A DNA stretch of 64,000 nucleotides. Source: Eledone cirrhosa (taxonomy: Eukaryota). The notes below the pieces were generated by a model. It did not search any database. It was not told the origin of the DNA and saw only the letters and a list, made by a program, of their open reading frames with translations. This document shows positions 3,170-57,337 of this stretch, piece after piece. The number at the start of each line of letters is the position of its first letter. Within the stretch, counting starts at the first letter, position 1. The translations under genes and the position numbers were made by a program. The stretch spans positions 192,076,001 through 192,140,000 of the forward strand of contig OZ024743.1 of NCBI GenBank assembly GCA_964016885.1. Reading direction: 5' to 3'.

Positions 3170-5257
3170 TCATCATCATCATCATCATCATTATCATCAA
3201 CGTTTAACGTCCGTGTTCCATGCTTGCATGGGTTTGGACGGGGGTAGTCCCACTTGAGGCAAGAGTGATTGTCTTGCTCGCATAGGACTGTCTGGCAGGT
3301 TTTCTACAGTTGGATGCCCTTCCTAACACCAACCACATTTACAGTGTGGGTCTGGGAGGTTTTTACCGTGTTGCCTACACGGCCACATTACAGCGTGGAC
3401 TGTGTGTTTTTTTGTCGTGACACCTACACGATCTCATTTGTTTCGGCCTGGATGGTGCGGCACCAACATAACTTTACATAGAAGGGGGCGGTGTGGATGG
3501 GGTGGGGGGGTGTATTTTGTTAGAGATACCTACTGACTGTAGTAGGTTTTACTTTGTATTTAGGTAAGGCGGGTCTTCTCTGTTACTGAGTACCGCCAAA
3601 GGTCTCGGTCCAGTGACATTGTCTTGGTGAGGTGTAAGTGTGTGAGGTCGGAGTTTATCAGCTCGTCCCAGGTTTTTCTGGGTCTGCCTATTCCGTGGCT
3701 ACCGTCTATCTTTATTGCCCTGCACTTTGTTATACAGCTATCGACTTTCATGCGCATCACGTGTCCATACCAACGTAGCCTTCTCTCGAGTAAACAACAT
3801 CTGATCCCTCTTATTTCTAATTTTTTCCTTAGTTCGTTTATGCTTTGTCGTTCACATATATTACTATTACACATCCAGCGGAGCATGCAAGCTTCGTTTC
3901 TCTCTAGTCTGCGTATATCCTCTGCACACAATGCCCAGGTCTCACTGCCATGCAACATTGCTGTTCGTATGCAGGCATCATACAGCCTGCCTTTCATTTT
4001 TAGGGAGAACCCTTTAGCGGCTAATAGTGGTATAAGCTCTCTGAACTTTTTCCACCCAGTTCTGACTCTAGCTACTGTACTTTCAGAGCACCCTCCCCCA
4101 CTGCTGATTTTGTCACCCAGGTAACGGAAGCTGTCCACTATTTCTATAGAACCCTCTGCGCAGTTGAAAGAGCTAGTATTTTGTGGGCACTTGCTGCTAC
4201 TTATTGCCCCAGAACACCGGCCACATGTAAAATCTATGTTCTTAGTTAGCTTACCTGTGATCCCACTACATCTTTTATGCACCCAAACTTTGCATTTGGG
4301 ACACAAAATGGAATTTCTACCTACGCCTTTCCTACACTCTGCGCATGGCCACTTCCCGGAGGGGACCGCCGCCTTATTTTCTTTCTTACAAACTAGAACT
4401 TTAGTCTTAGCCAGGTTAATTTTAAGGCCTTTTGATTCTAGGCCGTGCTTCCATGTTTGGAATTTCTTCTCTAGCTCGGCCATTGATTCAGCTATGAGCG
4501 TTAGATCATCTGCGTATAGGAGTTCCCATGGGCAGCCGGTCTTGAACTCCACTGTTATAGCCTGGAGGGCAATAATAAATAGTAGGGGGCTAAGAACAGA
4601 GCCCTGATGAACACCAACTTTTACACTAAACTCTTCACTATATTCGTTGTTAATTCTAACCTTGCTGACTGTCTCTTTATACATGGCTTGTATAGCTCTC
4701 ACAAGCCATTCATCAACACCTAGTTTTCTAAGAGCCCACCAGATAATGGAATGGGGGACTCTGTCGAAGGCCTTCTCCAAGTCGACGAAAGCTAAGTATA
4801 GGGGTTTACTTTTAGCTAGGTACTTCTCCTGTAGTTGTCGTACAATGAAAAGAGCGTCTGTGGTACTTTTTCCTGACACAAACCCGAACTGCATTTCATC
4901 TAGATCAATTCGCTCTCTGATTAGTTGCGCTATTACTTTTTCCGTGACCTTCATGACCTGGTCGATTAATTTAATGCCTCTATAGTTACTCCTATCTAGG
5001 GCATCTCCTTTACCCTTATAACAGTTAACGATAATGCTGCTACGCCAGTCCTTCGGAACAACCCCATTCTGTATGACTTGGTTGACTATCCGGGTGACCA
5101 TGGTGTGTCCCACCGTACCAGATGCCTTCAGCATCTCGGCAACTATTTCCGAAGGCCCAGCCGCCTTGCCTGTCTTGATATCTTTGATTGCCTTACTTAT
5201 TATACTACCCTCGACTAACACTGCTGGTCCCTCTATTGGGTCTATGTGGGGGAAATA
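3170..5257 (-). mobile_element. RTE-clade non-LTR retrotransposon, 5'-truncated (family A), open RT/C-terminal ORF 3560-5221
   Basis: RT motifs NYRGIKL, QFGF, FVDLEKAFDRV, GVHQGSVLSPLLF, YADD. RTE-type C-terminus MLHGSETW, RLRWYGHV, GRPRKTW. (TGA)n tail at about 3170-3198. Confidence 0.92.
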
Positions 5258-19364: not shown

Positions 19365-21910
19365 AAATCCTACTTCACCTCTGCAAAATCCTACTTCAGT
19401 ACCTCAAAAGTGGCGCAGCGATGACCCTGGCTCTCTGATAGCTATGGTAGCAGGACTCAATGTCCTGGCAGGTTTTACCATGCTACACAAGTATCAGACT
19501 ATTTGTCCGAGAGATGATTCATCATCTAGAGTTCAAAAGCTAGCTAAACTGAAGAGGTACCGGCCTGTCCGCCCAGCCAGTGGGATGGTGTCATCTTATG
19601 GCTAAAACAGCACAAAGAAAAGGGCCTCAGTACCCTGCGCGTCAATCAGGCCACTCCACGATGGAGGAGTGCAACCCAAGTGACGAGAGGCTGCTAAGAA
19701 TCACAGGTTCCCGAAGGCCGCCAAAGAACAGGACTAACCTTGCCATATGCACCTACAACTGCAGGTCTTTGGCAGGGGAGCAAGGACTGAACCACCTAAT
19801 GGAGGAGAAGAACATCAGGTGCAACGTGTTAGGGCTGTGCCAGACCCGCCAGAAGAAGGAGGCAAGTTCACGATGGCAAGATGGATGTGCCGTGAGACTC
19901 TGTAAAGCAGAGGGTACCAGATCGGTCGGAGGTATAGGGTTCATCATAAGTAAGGAATGGGCTTCGGAGATCGCTTCTTGCCAGTTTATATCGTCACAGA
20001 TTGGTGTACTGAACGTGAACCTCTCAGGGAAGGCCACCCTCAAGATCATCCAGACCTATGCTCCCACGAGTGCCAGCAACGACGATGAAGTGGAAGAATT
20101 CTATCGCCAGCTAGACAAAGTGCTAGCTGTGAAGTCCACTTACACTGTCGTGATGGGAGACTTCAACGCAAAGGTCAGACAGGGACGGCAAGGGGAAGAG
20201 TATGTTGGAAGATTCGGCCTAGGAGAGCGAAATGAGAGAGGAGAACGTCTGGTCACCATGGCGGAGGCGAGACAGCTCTACTTCGGAAACAGCCTATTCA
20301 GGAAGAAGAAGGAGAAGAGATGGACCTGGGTATCGCCAAATTCTGAGCACCAAAACGAGATTGACTACATCTTGGTCGACAAGCGATGCATACTGCAGGA
20401 CGTCTCTATCATAACGCCATTCAAAACAGGCAGTGATCATCGTCTGGTGAGGGCGAAGGTCATCATCGACCGGACGAGGGAGAAGAAGGCGCTGCATTTG
20501 GCGTCGAAGGGAGAACGCGCCCGGGTCTTCAACGACGCGCAGTTGCAGGAAGCCATCATGCAGGAAAACAGGTGTCAAGGAGACGGCATAGACGTTGACT
20601 ACGACTCACTGATAAGGGAACTGAAGGGGTGTTTGAGGAAGGCTAAGGGTGTGTGCCCGAGGGAGCAGAAGGGAAGAGTCTCGGAGGAAACTATGAAGTT
20701 GCTTGAGAAGAGGAAGAATATGAAGAGGACACCTGAAGATCACCTCGAATATTCCCTTCTCGGCAGAGTGATACGTTAACAAGTGAAGAGAGACTTTGAG
20801 GCATACCGGATGGAGAAGCTCCTGAAGGCCACAAAGGAAAAGAAGAGCCTCAAGAAATGAGAGAGAGACATGACAATGTACAGATCGGAGGTGACAACCC
20901 TGAAAAACAGCTGGAGTACTGGTCAGCGACAAGAGTGAGGTGGAAAAGGTTTGCGAAGAATTCTACACCAAGCTCTTCAAGTCTGCCGGGAATGTGCAGC
21001 CATTGCCGTCACTCCAACAGGAAGAAAATGTGCAACCCATCCTTGTCAGTGAGGTCGAAAGAGCCGTCGGCTTGATGAAAAGCGGGAAGGCGCCAGGGAA
21101 AGACGGCATAACATCGGAGGTGTTGAAGTCAGACGGAGAGTAGCTCTGGAAAATCCTCGCCAAGCGATTCACACACTATCTGGACGAGGGAAGAATACCC
21201 TCGCAGTGGAAAGAGTCGAATACCATCCTGCTATACAAGAAGGGTGATAGAGAAGATCTGAAGAACTACCGACCCATATGCCTGCTGTCTCACATGTACA
21301 AGCTGTTCATGAAGATAATCCTGAACAGGTTATCACATCATCTGGACGAACAGCAACCGAGAGAGCAAGCCAGCTTCCGGAAAAACTACAGCATGATGGA
21401 CCACATATTTACTCTGACACAACTGCTTGAGCGAGCAAAAGAGTACAAGATGCCTCTTTGCATCGCGTTCGTAGACTACGAGAAGGCCTTCAACAGCGTT
21501 GAAATCAACGCAGTGCTGAACTTGCTGCAGAGGCAAGGAGTCGAGGCGCAATACGTTCAACTGCTCAGGGAGCGGGTTGCGGATGCACCACTGACATAGC
21601 TCTGCTGTCATCACCCGTACAAGTGCCGGTCGAGAAGGGAGTGAAGCAAGGAGATACGATCTCTCCAAAACTTTTCACCGCGTGTCTCGAGCAGATCATC
21701 AGAGGCATTGACTGGCAAGGCGGTGTCATCATCAACGGCGAGATACTTACCCACCTCCGTTTCGCTGATGACATCGTACTCATCGCTGAAACCACGGATC
21801 AGCTTCAGACCATGCTGACGGAGCTCGACATCAAAAGCTCTGCAGTAGACCTCAAGATGAACCGCATGAAAACGAAGTTCATGCAGTCCGACAACGTACC
21901 AACAGGTCAA
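19365..21910 (+). mobile_element. RTE-clade LINE (family C), 5' UTR + AP endonuclease + RT, disrupted
   Basis: APE motifs CTYNCRSL, IIQTYAPT, MGDFNAKV, NEIDYILV, GSDHRLV. RT motifs NYRPICLL, FVDYEKAF, KGVKQGDTISPKLF, LRFADD. Several stops and frameshifts. Confidence 0.92.
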
Positions 21911-24057: not shown

Positions 24058-26163
24058 TCATCATCATCATCATTTAACGTCCATGTTCCACACTTGCATG
24101 GGTTTGGACGGGAGTTTTCCCACTTGAGGCAAGAGTGGTTGTCTTGCTCGCATAGGACTGTCTGGCAGGTTTTCTACAGTTGGATGCCCTTCCTAACACC
24201 AACCACATTTACAGTGTGGGGCTGGGAGGTTTTTACCGTGTTGCCTACACGGCCACATTACAGCGTGGACTGTCTGGCGGGTTTTCTACAGCTGGATGTC
24301 CTTCCTAACACCAACCACATTTACATTGTGGGGCTGGGAGGTTTTTACCGTGTTGCCTACACGGCCACATTACAGCGTGGACTGTGTGTTTTTTGTCGTG
24401 ACACCTACACGATCTCATTTGTTTCGGCCTGGATGTTGTGGCACCAACATAACTTTACATTGAAGAGGGCGGTGTGGATGGCGTGGGGGTGGTGGGACGG
24501 GGTGTATTTTGTTAGAGATGCCTACTGACTGTAGTAGGTTTTACTTTGTATTTAGGTAAGGCGGGTCTTCTCTATTACTGAGTACCGCCAAAGGTCTCGG
24601 TCCAGTGACATTGTCTTGGAGAGGTGTAAGTGTGTGAGGTCGGAATTTATCAGCTCGTCCCAGGTTTTTCTGGGTCTGCCTACTCCGTGGCTACCATCTA
24701 TCTTTATTGCCATGCACTTTGTTATACAGCTGTCGTCTTTCATGCGCATCACGTGACCATACCAACGTACCCTTCTCTCGAGTAAACAACATCTGATCCC
24801 TCTTATTTCTAATTTTTTCCTTAGTTCGTTTATGCTTTGCCGTTCACGTATATTACTATTACACATCCAGCGGAGCATGCAAGCTTTGTTCCTCTCTAGT
24901 CTGCGTATATCCTCTGCACACAATGCCCAGGTCTCACTGCCATGCAACATTGCTGTTCGTATGCAGGCATCATAGAACCTGCCTTTCATTTTTAGGGAGA
25001 ACCCTTTAGCGGCTAATAGTGGTTTAAGCTCTCTGAACTTTTGCCATCCAGTTCTGACTCTAGCTACTGTACTTTCAGAGCACCCTCCCCCACTGCTGAT
25101 TTTGTCACCCAGGTAACGGAAGCTGTCCACTATTTCTATAGAACCCTCTGCGCAATTGAAAGAGCTAGTATTTTTTGGGCACTTGCTGCTACTTATTGCA
25201 CCAGAGCACCGGCCACATGTAAAATCTATGTTCTTAGTTAGCTTACCTGTGATCCCACTACATCTTTTATGCACCCATACTTTGCATTTGGGACATAAAA
25301 TGGAGTTTCTACCTACGCCTTTCCTACACACTGAGCATGGCCATTTCCCGGAAGGGACCGGCGCCTTATTTTCTTTCCTACAAACTAGAACTTTAGTCTT
25401 AGCCAGGTTAATTTTAAGGCCTTTTGATTCTAGGCCATGCTTCCATGTTTGGAATTTCTTCTCTAGCTCGGTCATTGATTCAGCTATGAGCGTTAGATCA
25501 TCTGCGTATAGGAGTTCCCATGGGCAGCCGGTCTTGAACTCCTCTGTTATAGCCTGAAGGGCAATAATAAATAGTAGGGGGCTAAGAACAGAGCCCTGAT
25601 GGACACCAACTTTTACGCTAAACTCTTCACTATATTCATTGTTAATTCTAACCTTGCTGACTGTTTCTTTATACATGGCTTGTATAGCTCTCACAAGCCA
25701 TTCGTCAACACCTAGTTTTCTAAGAGCCTACGAGATAATGGAACGGGGGACTCTGTCGAAGGCTTTCTTCAAATCAACAAAAGCTAAGTATAGGGTTTAC
25801 TTTTAGCTAGGTACTTCTCCTGTAGTTGTCGTACAATGAAAAGAGCGTCTGTGGTACTTTTGCCTGACACAAACCCGAACTGCATTTCATCTAGATCAAT
25901 TCTCTCTCTGATTAGTTGCGCTATTACTTTTTCCGTGACCTTCATGACCTGGTCGATTAATTTAATGCCTCTATAGTTAAACCTATCTAGGGCATCTCTT
26001 TTACCCTTGTAACAGTTAATGATGATGCTGCTATACCAGTCCTTCGGAACAACCCCATTCTGTATGACTTGGTTTACTATCCGGGTGACCATGGTGTGTC
26101 CCACCGTTCCAGAGGCTTTCAGCATCTCAGCAACTATTTCCGAAGACCCAGCCGCCTTACCCG
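24058..26163 (-). mobile_element. RTE-clade LINE, 5'-truncated family A copy with a disrupted frame
   Basis: Near-identical protein to 3560-5221, split into ORFs 25784-26125 and 24552-25694. About 110-bp tandem duplication in the 3' UTR and a (TGA)n tail. Confidence 0.92.
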
Positions 26164-26473
26164 ATATATAAATATATCGAGTGAGTTAATCGGCCGGGCG
26201 CACCGAAAATGATAAATGGAAAAAATGAAATGAAATTTCATTTCTCACTCTTAGTACGGCTGTTACTTAAATATAAGTATGTATACGTACATACATATAT
26301 GTATACAGACATACAGTAGTATGTATATATATACATACATGCACACATATATATATGTACGTATGGATTTACCGAACATTTATTATAATGCTCGGTTTGT
26401 TTGTAAACAAACATCCCAGATTAAGCCGTAGTGTCTCGCAAACATTGTTGCCCTTTTGTTCAACACTGACAAA

Positions 26474-26528
26474 GGAACGATGTACTAGTTTCAAGCTTAT
26501 TAGCTATCGTCAGCACCGTATACCTTCC
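26474..26528 (-). ncRNA. Type I hammerhead ribozyme
   Basis: Reverse complement reads ggaa-ggtata-cggtg CTGACGA tagctaataagctt GAAA ctag TA^catcg-ttcc, with all core positions present. Confidence 0.88.
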
Positions 26529-27191
26529 TGCCAGTTGATTGAACGTCTGAAAGTATATACTTTCCTTAAGCATATTAACGGCTGAGCAGCCTAATTTGCA
26601 TATCGAGTGAGTTAATTGGCCGGGCGCACCGGAAATGATAAATGAAAAAATGAAACAAAATTTCATTTCTCACTCTTAGTACGGCTGTTACTTAAATATA
26701 AGTATGTATACGTACATACATATATGTATACAGATGTACAGTAGTATGTATATACATACATACATGCACACATATATATATATTTACGTATGGATTTAGC
26801 GAACATTTATTATAATGCTCGGTTTGTTTGTAAACAAAGGGCAACGATGGTTGCTAAACACTGTACGACTTAATCCGGGATGTTTGTTTACAAACAAACC
26901 GAGCATTATAATAAATGTTCGGTAAATACATACGTACATATATATATGTGTGCATGTATGTATATATACACATACTACAGTACGTCTGTATACATATATG
27001 TATGTACATATACATACTTATATTTAAGTAACAGTCGTACTAAGAGTGAGAAATGAAATTTCGTCTCATTTTTTCCATTTATCGTTTTCGGTGCGCCCGG
27101 CCGATTAACTCACTCGATATGCAAATTAGGCTGCTCAGCCGTTAATATGCATAAGGAAAGTATATACTTTCAGACGTTCAATCAACTGGCA

Positions 27192-27246
27192 GGAAGGTAT
27201 ACGGTGCTGACGATAGCTAATAAGCTTGAAACTAGTACATCGTTCA
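27192..27246 (+). ncRNA. Type I hammerhead ribozyme
   Basis: ggaaggtatacggtg CTGACGA tagctaataagctt GAAA ctag TA^catcgttca. One mismatch in distal stem I. Confidence 0.85.
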
Positions 27247-27420
27247 TTTGTCAGTATTGAACAAAAGGGCAACGATGGTTGCTAAACACTGTACGGCTTA
27301 ATACGGGATGTTTGTTTACAAACAAACCGAGGATTATAATAAATGTTCGGTAAATCCATACGTACATATATATACATACTACTGTATGCCTGTATACATA
27401 TATTTATGTACATATACATA

Positions 27421-27460
<40 letters not shown>

Positions 27461-52119: not shown

Positions 52120-52151
52120 TAGCTTTCTATTTGCTTATATATATATATATA

Positions 52152-52209
<58 letters not shown>

Positions 52210-52409
52210 TATGTACACGTACATACATATATGTATACCGACGTACAGTAGTATGTATATATATATATACATACATGCACACATATATATATGCACGTAT
52301 GGATTCACCGAACATTTATTATAATGCTCGGTGTGTTTGTAAACAAACATCCCGTATTAAGCCGTAGTGTCTAGCAACCACCGTTGCTCGTTTGTTCAAC
52401 ACTGACAAA

Positions 52410-52464
52410 GGAACGCTGTACTAGTTTCAAGCTTGTTAGCTATCGTCAGCAACGTATACCTTCC
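52410..52464 (-). ncRNA. Type I hammerhead ribozyme (first of 3 minus-strand copies; also 52832-52886 and 53254-53308)
   Basis: Exact reverse complement of the motif at 53603-53657. Confidence 0.9.
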
Positions 52465-53602
52465 TGCCAGATTGTTGAACGTATATACTTACCTTATGCA
52501 TATTAACGGCTGAGTAGCCCAATATGCATATCGAGTGGGTTAATCGGCCGGGTGCACCGAAAACGATAAACGGAAAAAATGAAACGATATTTCATTTCCC
52601 ACTCTTAGTACGGCTGTTACTTAAATATAAGTATGTACACGTACATACATATATGTATACCGACGTACAGTAGTATGTATATATATATATACATACATGC
52701 ACACATATATATATGCACGTATGGATTCACCGAACATTTATTATAATGCTCGGTGTGTTTGTAAACAAACATCCCGTATTAAGCCGTAGTGTCTAGCAAC
52801 CACCGTTGCTCGTTTGTTCAACACTGACAAAGGAACGCTGTACTAGTTTCAAGCTTGTTAGCTATCGTCAGCAACGTATACCTTCCTGCCAGATTGTTGA
52901 ACGTATATACTTACCTTATGCATATTAACGGCTGAGTAGCCCAATATGCATATCGAGTGGGTTAATCGGCCGGGTGCACCGAAAACGATAAACGGAAAAA
53001 ATGAAACGATATTTCATTTCCCACTCTTAGTACGGCTGTTACTTAAATATAAGTATGTACACGTACATACATATATGTATACCGACGTACAGTAGTATGT
53101 ATATATATATATACATACATGCACACATATATATATGCACGTATGGATTCACCGAACATTTATTATAATGCTCGGTGTGTTTGTAAACAAACATCCCGTA
53201 TTAAGCCGTAGTGTCTAGCAACCACCGTTGCTCGTTTGTTCAACACTGACAAAGGAACGCTGTACTAGTTTCAAGCTTGTTAGCTATCGTCAGCAACGTA
53301 TACCTTCCTGCCAGATTGTTGAACGTATATACTTACCTTATGCATATTAACGGCTGAGTAGCCCAATATGCATATCGAGTGGGTTAATCGGCCGGGTGCA
53401 CCGAAAACGATAAACGGAAAAAATGAAACGATATTTCATTTCCCACTCTTAGTACGGCTGTTACTTAAATATAAGTATGTACACGTACATACATATATGT
53501 ATACCGACGTACAGTAGTATGTATATATATATATACATACATGCACACATATATATATGCACGTATGGATTCACGTATGGATTCACGTTCAACAATCTGG
53601 CA

Positions 53603-53657
53603 GGAAGGTATACGTTGCTGACGATAGCTAACAAGCTTGAAACTAGTACAGCGTTCC
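53603..53657 (+). ncRNA. Type I hammerhead ribozyme (first of 9 plus-strand copies, repeating every 422 bp to about 57033)
   Basis: ggaa-ggtata-cgttg CTGACGA t-agct-aaca-agct-t GAAA c-ta-g TA^cagcg-ttcc. Intact core, stem II agct/agct, palindromic minimal stem III (ACTAGT), GUA triplet with cleavage predicted after 53648, stem I cgttg/cagcg plus ggaa/ttcc around a bulge. Confidence 0.9.
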
Positions 53658-56600
53658 TTTGTCAGTGTTGAACAAACGAGCAACGGTGGTTGCTAGACAC
53701 TACGGCTTAATACGGGATGTTTGTTTACAAACACACCGAGCATTATAATAAATGTTCGGTGAATCCATACGTGCATATATATATGTGTGTATGTATGTAT
53801 ATATATATATACATACTACTGTACGTCGGTATACATATATGTATGTACATGTACATACTTATATTTAAGTAACAGCCGTACTAAGAGTGGGAAATGAAAT
53901 ATCGTTTCATTTTTTCCGTTTATCGTTTTCGGTGCACCCGGCCGATTAACCCACTCGATATGCATATTGGGCTACTCAGCCGTTAATATGCATAAGGTAA
54001 GTATATACGTTCAACAATCTGGCAGGAAGGTATACGTTGCTGACGATAGCTAACAAGCTTGAAACTAGTACAGCGTTCCTTTGTCAGTGTTGAACAAACG
54101 AGCAACGGTGGTTGCTAGACACTACGGCTTAATACGGGATGTTTGTTTACAAACACACCGAGCATTATAATAAATGTTCGGTGAATCCATACGTGCATAT
54201 ATATATGTGTGCATGTATGTATATATATATATACATACTACTGTACGTCGGTATACATATATGTATGTACGTGTACATACTTATATTTAAGTAACAGCCG
54301 TACTAAGAGTGGGAAATGAAATATCGTTTCATTTTTTCCGTTTATCGTTTTCGGTGCACCCGGCCGATTAACCCACTCGATATGCATATTGGGCTACTCA
54401 GCCGTTAATATGCATAAGGTAAGTATATACGTTCAACAATCTGGCAGGAAGGTATACGTTGCTGACGATAGCTAACAAGCTTGAAACTAGTACAGCGTTC
54501 CTTTGTCAGTGTTGAACAAACGAGCAACGGTGGTTGCTAGACACTACGGCTTAATACGGGATGTTTGTTTACAAACACACCGAGCATTATAATAAATGTT
54601 CGGTGAATCCATACGTGCATATATATATGTGTGCATGTATGTATATATATATATACATACTACTGTACGTCGGTATACATATATGTATGTACGTGTACAT
54701 ACTTATATTTAAGTAACAGCCGTACTAAGAGTGGGAAATGAAATATCGTTTCATTTTTTCCGTTTATCGTTTTCGGTGCACCCGGCCGATTAACCCACTC
54801 GATATGCATATTGGGCTACTCAGCCGTTAATATGCATAAGGTAAGTATATACGTTCAACAATCTGGCAGGAAGGTATACGTTGCTGACGATAGCTAACAA
54901 GCTTGAAACTAGTACAGCGTTCCTTTGTCAGTGTTGAACAAACGAGCAACGGTGGTTGCTAGACACTACGGCTTAATACGGGATGTTTGTTTACAAACAC
55001 ACCGAGCATTATAATAAATGTTCGGTGAATCCATACGTGCATATATATATGTGTGCATGTATGTATATATATATATACATACTACTGTACGTCGGTATAC
55101 ATATATGTATGTACGTGTACATACTTATATTTAAGTAACAGCCGTACTAAGAGTGGGAAATGAAATATCGTTTCATTTTTTCCGTTTATCGTTTTCGGTG
55201 CACCCGGCCGATTAACCCACTCGATATGCATATTGGGCTACTCAGCCGTTAATATGCATAAGGTAAGTATATACGTTCAACAATCTGGCAGGAAGGTATA
55301 CGTTGCTGACGATAGCTAACAAGCTTGAAACTAGTACAGCGTTCCTTTGTCAGTGTTGAACAAACGAGCAACGGTGGTTGCTAGACACTACGGCTTAATA
55401 CGGGATGTTTGTTTACAAACACACCGAGCATTATAATAAATGTTCGGTGAATCCATACGTGCATATATATATGTGTGCATGTATGTATATACATATATAC
55501 ATACTACTGTACGTCGGTATACATATATGTATGTACGTGTACATACTTATATTTAAGTAACAGCCGTACTAAGAGTGGGAAATGAAATATCGTTTCATTT
55601 TTTCCGTTTATCGTTTTCGGTGCACCCGGCCGATTAACCCACTCGATATGCATATTGGGCTACTCAGCCGTTAATATGCATAAGGTAAGTATATACGTTC
55701 AACAATCTGGCAGGAAGGTATACGTTGCTGACGATAGCTAACAAGCTTGAAACTAGTACAGCGTTCCTTTGTCAGTGTTGAACAAACGAGCAACGGTGGT
55801 TGCTAGACACTACGGCTTAATACGGGATGTTTGTTTACAAACACACCGAGCATTATAATAAATGTTCGGTGAATCCATACGTGCATATATATATGTGTGC
55901 ATGTATGTATATATATATATACATACTACTGTACGTCGGTATACATATATGTATGTACGTGTACATACTTATATTTAAGTAACAGCCGTACTAAGAGTGG
56001 GAAATGAAATATCGTTTCATTTTTTCCGTTTATCGTTTTCGGTGCACCCGGCCGATTAACCCACTCGATATGCATATTGGGCTACTCAGCCGTTAATATG
56101 CATAAGGTAAGTATATACGTTCAACAATCTGGCAGGAAGGTATACGTTGCTGACGATAGCTAACAAGCTTGAAACTAGTACAGCGTTCCTTTGTCAGTGT
56201 TGAACAAACGAGCAACGGTGGTTGCTAGACACTACGGCTTAATACGGGATGTTTGTTTACAAACACACCGAGCATTATAATAAATGTTCGGTGAATCCAT
56301 ACGTGCATATATATATGTGTGCATGTATGTATATATATATATACATACTACTGTACGTCGGTATACATATATGTATGTACGTGTACATACTTATATTTAA
56401 GTAACAGCCGTACTAAGAGTGGGAAATGAAATATCGTTTCATTTTTTCCGTTTATCGTTTTCGGTGCACCCGGCCGATTAACCCACTCGATATGCATATT
56501 GGGCTACTCAGCCGTTAATATGCATAAGGTAAGTATATACGTTCAACAATCTGGCAGGAAGGTATACGTTGCTGACGATAGCTAACAAGCTTGAAACTAG

Positions 56601-57293
56601 TACAGCGTTCCTTTGTCAGTGTTGAACAAACGAGCAACGGTGGTTGCTAGACACTACGGCTTAATACGGGATGTTTGTTTACAAACACACCGAGCATTAT
56701 AATAAATGTTCGGTGAATCCATACGTGCATATATATATGTGTGCATGTATGTATATATATATATACATACTACTGTACGTCGGTATACATATATGTATGT
56801 ACGTGTACATACTTATATTTAAGTAACAGCCGTACTAAGAGTGGGAAATGAAATATCGTTTCATTTTTTCCGTTTATCGTTTTCGGTGCACCCGGCCGAT
56901 TAACCCACTCGATATGCATATTGGGCTACTCAGCCGTTAATATGCATAAGGTAAGTATATACGTTCAACAATCTGGCAGGAAGGTATACGTTGCTGACGA
57001 TAGCTAACAAGCTTGAAACTAGTACAGCGTTCCTTTGTCAGTGTTGAACAAACGAGCAACGGTGGTTGCTAGACACTACGGCTTAATACGGGATGTTTGT
57101 TTACAAACACACCGAGCATTATAATAAATGTTCGGTGAATCCATACGTGCATATATATATGTGTGCATGTATGTATATATATATATACATACTACTGTAC
57201 GTCGGTATACATATATGTATGTACGTGTACATACTTATATTTAAGTAACAGCTGTACTAAGAGTGGGAAATGAAATATCGTTTCATTTTTTCC

Positions 57294-57337
<44 letters not shown>

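What the first reader, a model, noticed from the sequence alone, without database searches (positions are those of the whole stretch)
53555..53600. Array geometry suggests double-ended, rolling reverse transcription into a (TA)n break
Seen: the ribozyme-sense 3' directions of both arms point outward. The outer ends stop at different monomer positions, each at TA microhomology (aatataagt to tatataagt at about 52207; ccgtttat to ccgtttatata at about 57298). The central junction has a 12-nt duplication (cacgtatggatt x2), and arm lengths are non-integer. Inference: both ends of a cut (TA)n site primed cDNA on a circular or multimeric RNA, went round several times, and were then joined. Unequal crossing-over alone would not explain the inversion plus permuted ends.
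Basis: inference. Interest (0 to 1): 0.8.

Follow-up and report, generated by a model that had tools for sequence, protein, structure and literature searches.

The report
Two-armed hammerhead retrozyme with Penelope ends
This 5-kb mirror-image array of a 422-base repeat with a ribozyme-like motif sits in a (TA)n run and ends at two fixed sites, one per side, as most sampled two-armed copies and this genome's Penelope-type jumping genes do, so it was likely copied into a DNA break from both sides by a Penelope enzyme, probably running round a small RNA circle.

Summary
The geometry is confirmed: a 3.3-unit antisense arm (52203-53574) and an 8.8-unit sense arm (53585-57299) of a 422-nt hammerhead-like monomer, head-to-head, between (TA)n runs, with a 12-nt local duplication at the join. 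The outer ends are not permuted. They sit at two fixed monomer sites, A (216) and B (275). Of 84 sampled head-to-head insertions, 66 have one A and one B end, 1 has A+A, none B+B, and 17 have an off-site end. Inner ends are random. A young autonomous Penelope-like element (RT + GIY-YIG) in this genome shows the same footprint in 14 of 14 complete two-armed copies. Arms cross the predicted ribozyme cut without indels (94 passes). In one insertion two near-private variants are in all 9 units of both arms. Best reading: a non-LTR retrozyme likely inserted by a Penelope enzyme priming both ends of a (TA)n break, probably on a monomer circle. The circle, the ribozyme activity and the driver are not shown, and some long arrays clearly grew later. 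The scan found this family and pattern before on other DNA of this genome (e1-8665316). Known kind, new variant.

The parts
52136..52207 (.). (TA)n target remnant, left
   Evidence: TRF 36 copies
52203..53574 (-). Left arm, about 3.3 units of the 422-nt monomer (monomer 111 to 216); outer end at fixed site A
52203..52207 (-). Site A (monomer 212-216): 5-nt overlap with (TA)n; in the loop of a small predicted hairpin 208-223
   Evidence: same end in 29 of 76 arm ends of the end-unbiased set
52414..52454 (-). Type I hammerhead-like motif, first of 3 antisense copies (period 422)
   Evidence: core positions; manual structure
53560..53588 (+). Central join: 12-nt unit x2.4; 10-nt insert 53575-53584 copied from the left-arm end; 4 nt shared with the right arm
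53585..57299 (+). Right arm, 8.8 units (monomer 359 to 275); outer end at fixed site B
53613..53653 (+). Type I hammerhead-like motif, first of 9 sense copies: CUGANGA and GAAA core, U-U at the base of helix II, minimal palindromic helix III, predicted cut after 53648
   Evidence: double-sided changes in helix I; no Rfam hit
57241..57299 (+). 59-nt 'tail' between site A and site B, present at the right outer end only
   Evidence: compare 40-nt and 58-nt tails of two PLE families
57297..57332 (.). (TA)n target remnant, right; 3-nt overlap with site B
26174..27444 (.). Second, older (87-90%) head-to-head copy of the same family in this window

Best explanation
This is one young insertion of a non-coding 422-nt repeat with a hammerhead-like motif, arranged as two outward-facing arms that end at two fixed sites in a (TA)n run; it was likely made by a Penelope-like enzyme in trans that cut (TA)n on both strands and primed a cDNA from each DNA end, probably on a circular monomer RNA. 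Shown: orientation, fixed sites, one-of-each pairing, random inner ends, the same footprint in autonomous PLEs of this genome. Inferred: the enzyme (probably a dimer) holds the RNA so that one DNA end starts at site A and the other at site B; both cDNAs run for a variable distance, often more than one round, straight through the ribozyme cut site; their free 3' ends are then joined by microhomology or a short templated patch (the 12-nt duplication here), and each serves as template for the other's second strand. Predicted, untested: self-cleavage as a dimer and ligation to a circle. Odds: PLE-type double-ended priming about 0.85; circle, given that, about 0.7.
For: Ends: 67 of 76 arm 3' ends in the end-unbiased set lie in the A or B window (4.3% expected), and 62 of those 67 run into TA. 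22 monomer positions end an alternating A/T run of 3 nt or more, but only 2 are used. Genome-wide exact end motifs: B 2929, A 1254, reversed controls 0. Pairing: 22 A+B, 0 A+A or B+B, 5 off-site in 27 end-unbiased head-to-head insertions; 50, 1, 0 and 10 in all 61; 16, 0, 0 and 7 in a second set of 23, from 40 loci of which 39 lie on other contigs. A and B arms are equally long (25 of 50 A longer), and 16 of 50 fit neither fold-back order. Inner ends are uniform (p 0.74), with 6 of 122 near the cut against 5.8 expected. 94 passes over the cut show 0 indels. Arms of one insertion agree at 500 of 569 diagnostic sites, against 0.73 in age-binned shuffles (max 0.81 of 1000). L008 has two variants in 9 of 9 units of both arms; one of them has 13 exact hits in the genome, 8 in L008 and 5 scattered singles, so no other source array is in this assembly. 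PLE-a (860 aa, RVT_1 + GIY-YIG) has one end of each of two sites 40 nt apart in 14 of 14 complete two-armed copies, all in (TA)n. In vitro, a PLE cuts and extends both strands and starts at two internal sites that bound the tail (PMC11167929).
Against: No driver identified: the monomer has no similarity to PLE-a's non-coding region (scores 25 and 34, shuffled mean 26, max 45), and its tail is 59 nt against 40 (PLE-a) and 58 (PLE-b). Rfam does not call the ribozyme, and the isolated 66-nt fold is not special (z -0.13). L099 and L038 carry alternating-unit variants and L001 a subset variant, so some arms grew or were heterogeneous. In L251 a variant is in both units of one arm but not in the other arm. 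17 of 84 two-armed insertions have an off-site end, and 18 single arms without a detected partner are in the end-unbiased set. In vitro the PLE used uncleaved RNA and saw no start-site difference between strands (PMC11167929). The L008 source could be missing from a haploid assembly. No A>G excess among rare locus-fixed variants (4 A>G, 5 T>C).
Confidence: 0.6

Rival explanations
1. Same PLE-driven priming from both ends, but the template is an uncleaved linear multimer transcribed from an existing array, so no circle is needed.
For: Seamless passage over the cut fits equally well. The minimal helix III predicts weak monomer cleavage (PMC4209133). Unprocessed RNA was the main substrate in vitro (PMC11167929). 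Long arrays of 7-19 kb exist (L009, L011-L013, L231).
Against: L008's haplotype has no other multi-unit array in the assembly. Variants shared by matched rounds of the two arms are not enriched (A1/B1 2 of 2958, A2/B2 2 of 3107 site comparisons, within the 0-3 per 1000 of other pairs, low power). Many variants are fixed across all units, which needs repeated single-unit bottlenecks.
Confidence: 0.22
2. The insertion was short (about one unit per arm) and the arms grew afterwards by unequal crossing-over or slippage.
For: Period-2 variants in L099 and L038, and a subset variant in L001. Median arm is only about one unit (461 and 382 nt); 16 of 100 arms exceed two units.
Against: In this locus and in L003, L007, L008, L030, L034, L035 every difference is confined to one unit, a star pattern, though with few mutations each. 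Both arms are multi-unit in near-identical young copies (L008, L030, this locus). It does not explain the inversion or the fixed ends.
Confidence: 0.1
3. One cDNA (or an antisense RNA) folds back and primes on itself, giving the inverted arm, as proposed for PLE palindromes.
For: Proposed for head-to-head PLE structures in PMC3846280 (passages). 8 of 61 joins overlap by more than 6 nt, several at monomer palindromes or hairpins.
Against: A cDNA fold-back copy cannot be longer than its template: only 23 of 50 pairs fit B-first, 11 fit A-first, and 16 fit neither. Most joins start at unrelated positions. It may be a minor route.
Confidence: 0.06
4. The inversion is a long-read or assembly chimera.
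For: This locus's own junction was not bridged by the laid runs.
Against: Arms end at different fixed sites and start at different inner positions, which a fold-back read would not give. Other head-to-head joints of the family appear in Illumina reads of two 2026 runs and in short-read contigs. L004 and L100 hold the same join twice in duplicated segments.
Confidence: 0.02

Closest known systems
Metazoan non-LTR retrozymes (Cervera and de la Pena 2020, PMC7229834, passages and Discussion read; Li, Clavereau and Pollet 2026, 10.64898/2026.07.22.740005, parts 1-3 of 5 read)
   Same: Non-coding tandem unit of a few hundred nt, GC under 45%, one type I hammerhead-like motif per unit, strongly self-paired circle predicted, PLEs in the same genome; circle-templated tandem cDNA and PLE mobilisation are proposed there.
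   Different: The text read describes neither head-to-head arms, two fixed ends, nor a (TA)n target. Here no pLTR homology to a PLE was found, and expression, cleavage and circles are untested.
EN+ Penelope-like elements (Craig et al. 2021, PMC8557442, passages and section 15; Arkhipova et al. 2013, PMC3846280, passages; Frangieh et al. 2024, PMC11167929, parts 1-3 of 4)
   Same: Inverted 5'-truncated copy head-to-head, a tail at one end only, partial tandems, (TA)n bias, two internal RT start sites bounding the tail, both strands cut and extended in vitro.
   Different: No ORF; tail 59 nt rather than 30-40; up to 9 rounds of a short unit. The papers read explain the inversion by self-priming or the tail by endonuclease resolution, and give no count showing one site per end.
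L1 twin priming (as summarised in PMC10760644, passages)
   Same: Two primings at one target, outward-facing segments, microhomology join in the middle.
   Different: In L1 it is an occasional outcome, with one priming at the poly(A) tail (recalled) and non-overlapping segments. Here it is the commonest outcome, both starts are fixed internal sites, and both arms copy the same sequence.

Membership tests
Metazoan non-LTR retrozyme | Short non-coding tandem unit (about 150-450 bp), low GC, dispersed at many loci | tested here: met
   422 nt, GC about 38%; 1809 exact core hits genome-wide
Metazoan non-LTR retrozyme | Type I hammerhead motif in each unit | tested here: met
   Manual: core boxes in all 12 copies; helices I and II form in the circular MFE; helix I middle pair TG 135, GT 7, TA 7, AT 4, CG 3, TT 3 among 162 distinct copies. 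Rfam did not call it.
Metazoan non-LTR retrozyme | Self-cleavage of the RNA | not testable with these tools
   Needs in vitro transcription of monomer and dimer
Metazoan non-LTR retrozyme | Expressed as linear and circular monomer RNA | not testable with these tools
   No run on record as RNA was offered; only the predicted fold is available (-146 kcal/mol, z -9 against 25 shuffles, partly from TA/TG tracts)
Non-autonomous PLE-mobilised element | Head-to-head inverted 5'-truncated partner | tested here: met
   61 head-to-head against 4 tail-to-tail neighbours, the latter all microsatellite-spaced
Non-autonomous PLE-mobilised element | Two fixed 3' ends bounding a tail, tail at one end only | tested here: met
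   66 of 67 insertions with two on-site ends are A+B
Non-autonomous PLE-mobilised element | Intact, recently active PLE with the same target in the genome | tested here: met
   PLE-a, 860 aa RVT_1 + GIY-YIG, copies up to 99.9% alike, (TA)n flanks; clade not tested
Non-autonomous PLE-mobilised element | Sequence homology to the pLTR of a partner PLE | tested here: inconclusive
   None to PLE-a or in the PLE loci searched (L041-L070, L131-L210); many PLE families were not examined
Autonomous PLE | ORF with RT and GIY-YIG endonuclease | tested here: not met
   No such ORF in the array
Plant LTR retrozyme | LTRs with type III hammerhead and 4-bp target duplication | tested here: not met
   Tandem units with type I topology, no LTR pair; a duplication cannot be read inside (TA)n

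The most novel reading that the evidence does not exclude
Penelope-type integration is by rule double-ended and asymmetric: one enzyme dimer cuts both strands of (TA)n, loads the two DNA ends on two different fixed sites of one RNA, and on a ligated ribozyme circle both polymerases roll for several rounds before the cDNAs are joined. This single rule would explain the PLE tail, the inverted partner copy and the tandems, and these arrays would be direct genomic records of rolling-circle reverse transcription in an animal.
Probability: 0.5. Interest if true: 0.8.

Novelty: new variant of a known kind. Interest (0 to 1): 0.6.

Why it matters
How PLEs make their tandem and inverted structures and their tail is named as open in PMC8557442, and rolling reverse transcription of retrozyme circles is proposed but not shown in the papers read (PMC7229834, PMC4209133). 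Here a short, very young, abundant substrate gives exact predicted start sites (monomer 216 and 275), an exact target, and an intact candidate enzyme from the same genome. That makes double-ended priming and rolling on a circle testable in the published in vitro assay.

Tried and rejected
DNA search of the genome with part of the monomer returned nothing because common words are skipped; exact patterns were used instead. Rfam at gathering and at E up to 10: no ribozyme family, only TA-rich miRNA look-alikes. No RNA holder listed, which says nothing on expression. Laying runs on this locus's junction: no depth over 53490-53580, no verdict; no empty allele could be read because contigs break at (TA)n. 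Random permutation of outer ends: rejected. Template jumping on cleaved linear monomers: no pile-up of inner ends and no indels at the cut. RNA-editing scars, a lead from e1-8803865: no A>G excess; A97G occurs on several backgrounds but is often in one unit only. An apparent one-unit offset between arms in three loci was not upheld. The PLE-like family L041-L070 as driver: it targets another repeat and shares nothing with the monomer. The strict junction caller scored 39 of 61 joins as insertions against 21 by BLAST boundaries, so its microhomology test rests on 22 joins only. PMC12910113 (passages) and the search gave nothing relevant. A genome-wide orientation count was not obtained; all orientation counts come from samples.

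Full report
Observation. The window is G000:C4:192076001-192140000 in a 3.0-Gb genome. TRF finds two arrays of period 422 at 52203-53574 and 53585-57299, a 12-nt unit x2.4 at 53560-53588, and (TA)n at 52136-52207 and 57297-57332. Numbering the monomer from the base after the predicted ribozyme cut, the left arm is antisense and runs 111 to 216 over about 3.3 units; the right arm is sense and runs 359 to 275 over 8.8 units. The overlaps with (TA)n are 5 and 3 nt. The 10-nt insert at the join is a copy of the adjacent left-arm end. The units differ by 4 interior substitutions, each in one unit.

The unit. Each unit holds the two hammerhead core boxes in type I order, with a U-U at the base of helix II and a minimal palindromic helix III. 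This is the kind described for metazoan repeats and said to cleave as a dimer (PMC4209133 passages; PMC7229834 passages). Rfam does not call it and the isolated 66-nt fold is unremarkable (z -0.13). Helices I and II do form in the circular MFE (-146 kcal/mol, z -9 against 25 shuffles, partly from TA/TG tracts). The middle pair of helix I shows double-sided changes among 162 distinct copies (TG 135, GT 7, AT 4, TA 7, CG 3, TT 3). The exact 37-nt core has 1809 hits. This fits a non-LTR retrozyme. Cleavage and expression are untested.

Samples. (a) End-unbiased set: 38 of the 41 clusters among the first 100 listed core hits (L001-L040), plus the two copies in the window. (b) 40 regions from the first listed B-end hits and 20 from the first A-end hits (L071-L130), biased for one end. 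(c) 40 loci picked through an internal variant, 39 of them on other contigs (L231-L270), unbiased for ends. Three rows were dropped from (a) and (b) as segmental duplicates (L004 twice, L100 once).

Orientation. In (a) and (b), 61 neighbouring arms are head-to-head and 4 tail-to-tail; all 4 are separated by 30-117 nt of microsatellite. In (c), 23 are head-to-head; the 2 tail-to-tail rows are a pair with 66 nt of TA between and a 51-nt low-complexity hit. Head-to-head joints of this family also appear in Illumina reads of two other runs (for example 52563|53633: 29 and 17 reads, 5 and 3 starts) and in short-read contigs. This locus's own join was not covered.

Outer ends are fixed. In (a), 67 of 76 arm 3' ends fall in two windows, A (29) and B (38), against 4.3% by chance, and 62 of the 67 continue into TA. 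TA microhomology alone does not pick them: 22 monomer positions end an alternating A/T run of 3 nt or more, some much longer. Exact end motifs have 2929 (B) and 1254 (A) hits, with 0 for the reversed controls. Pairing is asymmetric: 22 A+B, 0 like pairs and 5 with an off-site end in (a); 50 A+B, 1 A+A, 0 B+B and 10 off-site in (a)+(b); 16, 0, 0 and 7 in (c). Some off-site ends are interruptions or long satellites (L016, L011). 18 single arms in (a) have no detected partner and 3 have a tiny one.

The footprint is that of PLEs. Published PLE insertions are head-to-head, carry a 30-40-bp tail at one end, and favour (TA)n (PMC8557442 passages; PMC3846280 passages). A purified PLE cuts and extends both strands, is predicted to be a dimer, and starts at two internal sites that bound the tail (PMC11167929). 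In this genome a protein search led to a young family, PLE-a, with an 860-aa RVT_1 + GIY-YIG ORF. I fetched 20 regions (18 loci) chosen for opposite-strand pairs, tandems or long frames, not for their ends. 14 are two-armed with both ends visible, and all 14 have one end at each of two sites 40 nt apart, in (TA)n (one is 6 nt off); 1 has an end in a gap and 3 are single. A second family has a 58-nt tail and one end of each type in 4 of 5 copies with both ends seen. Neither is shown to be the driver: there is no similarity to PLE-a's non-coding region, and monomer hits in PLE loci were separate insertions.

Two primings, not a fold-back. The A arm is longer in 25 of 50 pairs; 23 fit a B-first fold-back, 11 an A-first one, and 16 neither. 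Inner ends are uniform on the monomer (122 ends, p 0.74). By BLAST boundaries, 28 of 61 joins overlap by 1-6 nt, 8 by more, 4 are blunt, 5 have 1-3 extra bases and 16 have 4 or more, of which 8 are locally templated at p under 0.05. Among the 22 joins that a strict caller scored without insertion, 15 have 2 nt or more of microhomology against 18% in simulated joins; that caller misreads older copies. The pattern resembles microhomology-mediated end joining with templated patches (recalled) and the L1 twin-priming model (PMC10760644 passages). The 8 long-overlap joins may be self-priming or annealing at the RNA's own palindromes.

One template, and is it a circle? The two arms of an insertion agree at 500 of 569 diagnostic sites; shuffled partners give 0.59, and 0.73 within age bins (max 0.81 of 1000). 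46 of 100 arms exceed one unit and 16 exceed two. Arms pass the predicted cut 94 times with no indel and no excess of mismatches, and do not tend to stop there (6 of 122 against 5.8). This excludes cleaved linear monomers with sloppy jumps, but not uncleaved multimers. The best case for a circle is L008: two variants in 9 of 9 units of both arms. One of them has 13 exact hits genome-wide, 8 in L008 and 5 single; the one other place where both markers lie close is an unrelated background (L231). Matched rounds of the two arms do not share rare variants more than other pairs (low power). Against: L099 and L038 have alternating-unit variants and L001 a subset variant, L251 has an arm-specific variant in two units, a source array could be absent from a haploid assembly, and the in vitro PLE used uncleaved RNA. 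No editing signal was found. I put the circle at about 0.7, given double-ended priming at about 0.85.

Novelty. The element class, the proposal that PLEs move it, and the proposal of circle-templated tandem cDNA are in print (PMC7229834 Discussion; PMC4209133; 10.64898/2026.07.22.740005 parts 1-3 of 5). Head-to-head structure and tail are in print for PLEs, explained by self-priming or endonuclease resolution. In nine searches and the texts read I found no report of two-armed retrozymes or of a one-site-per-end rule; the library lacks most subscription journals and I opened no supplements. I recorded the fixed-end result before consulting earlier scan notes. Those notes report the same family and pattern at another locus (e1-8665316) and the same architecture in a 310-nt family; they are unchecked AI notes and are not counted as evidence.

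Verdict. Observation confirmed; interpretation partly supported, with the ends fixed rather than permuted. New variant of a known kind. Interest 0.6, because it turns an open question on PLE integration and retrozyme spread into a defined assay, while the circle, the catalysis and the driver remain inferred.

Noticed in passing
window 26174-27444: Older head-to-head copy of the same family (87-90%); the right end runs into (TA)n near site A, the left end stops at monomer 313.
   Followed up: partly
L161-L180, e.g. L170:1766-4345(+): Young autonomous PLE family (3127-nt unit, 860-aa RT + GIY-YIG ORF, minimal hammerhead-like motif upstream of the ATG, 40-nt tail across the start codon); arms of up to about 2.7 units.
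   Followed up: yes
L146-L160, L211-L224: Second (TA)n-targeting PLE family with a 58-nt tail; 4 of 5 two-armed copies with both ends seen have one end of each type; nearest copies 94-98% alike.
   Followed up: partly
L041-L070: PLE-like family without a Pfam hit, with a long-stem hammerhead-like motif, whose ends often abut one dispersed repeat rather than (TA)n: possible repeat-specific targeting.
   Followed up: partly
L181-L210: Several further GIY-YIG PLE families, many followed by (TA)n; not classified.
   Followed up: no
L099:1013-5325; L038:3287-5601: Arrays with alternating-unit (dimeric higher-order) variants.
   Followed up: partly
L009, L011-L013, L231: Long satellite-like arrays of the same monomer, 7 kb to about 19 kb, 90-96% to the query.
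   Followed up: no
L004, L100: Whole two-armed insertions present twice with the same inner junction, i.e. later segmental duplication.
   Followed up: no
L015, L025, L029, L256: Separate insertions stacked in the same microsatellite, giving the only tail-to-tail neighbours.
   Followed up: partly
window 3563-5257(-), 19553-20776(+), 24555-25727(-), about 22722(-): Long frames that look like LINE-type RT/endonuclease remnants and a GIY-YIG-like remnant; not scanned.
   Followed up: no
L170:4945-5190: A 66% match to the monomer, probably a related ribozyme-repeat family.
   Followed up: no
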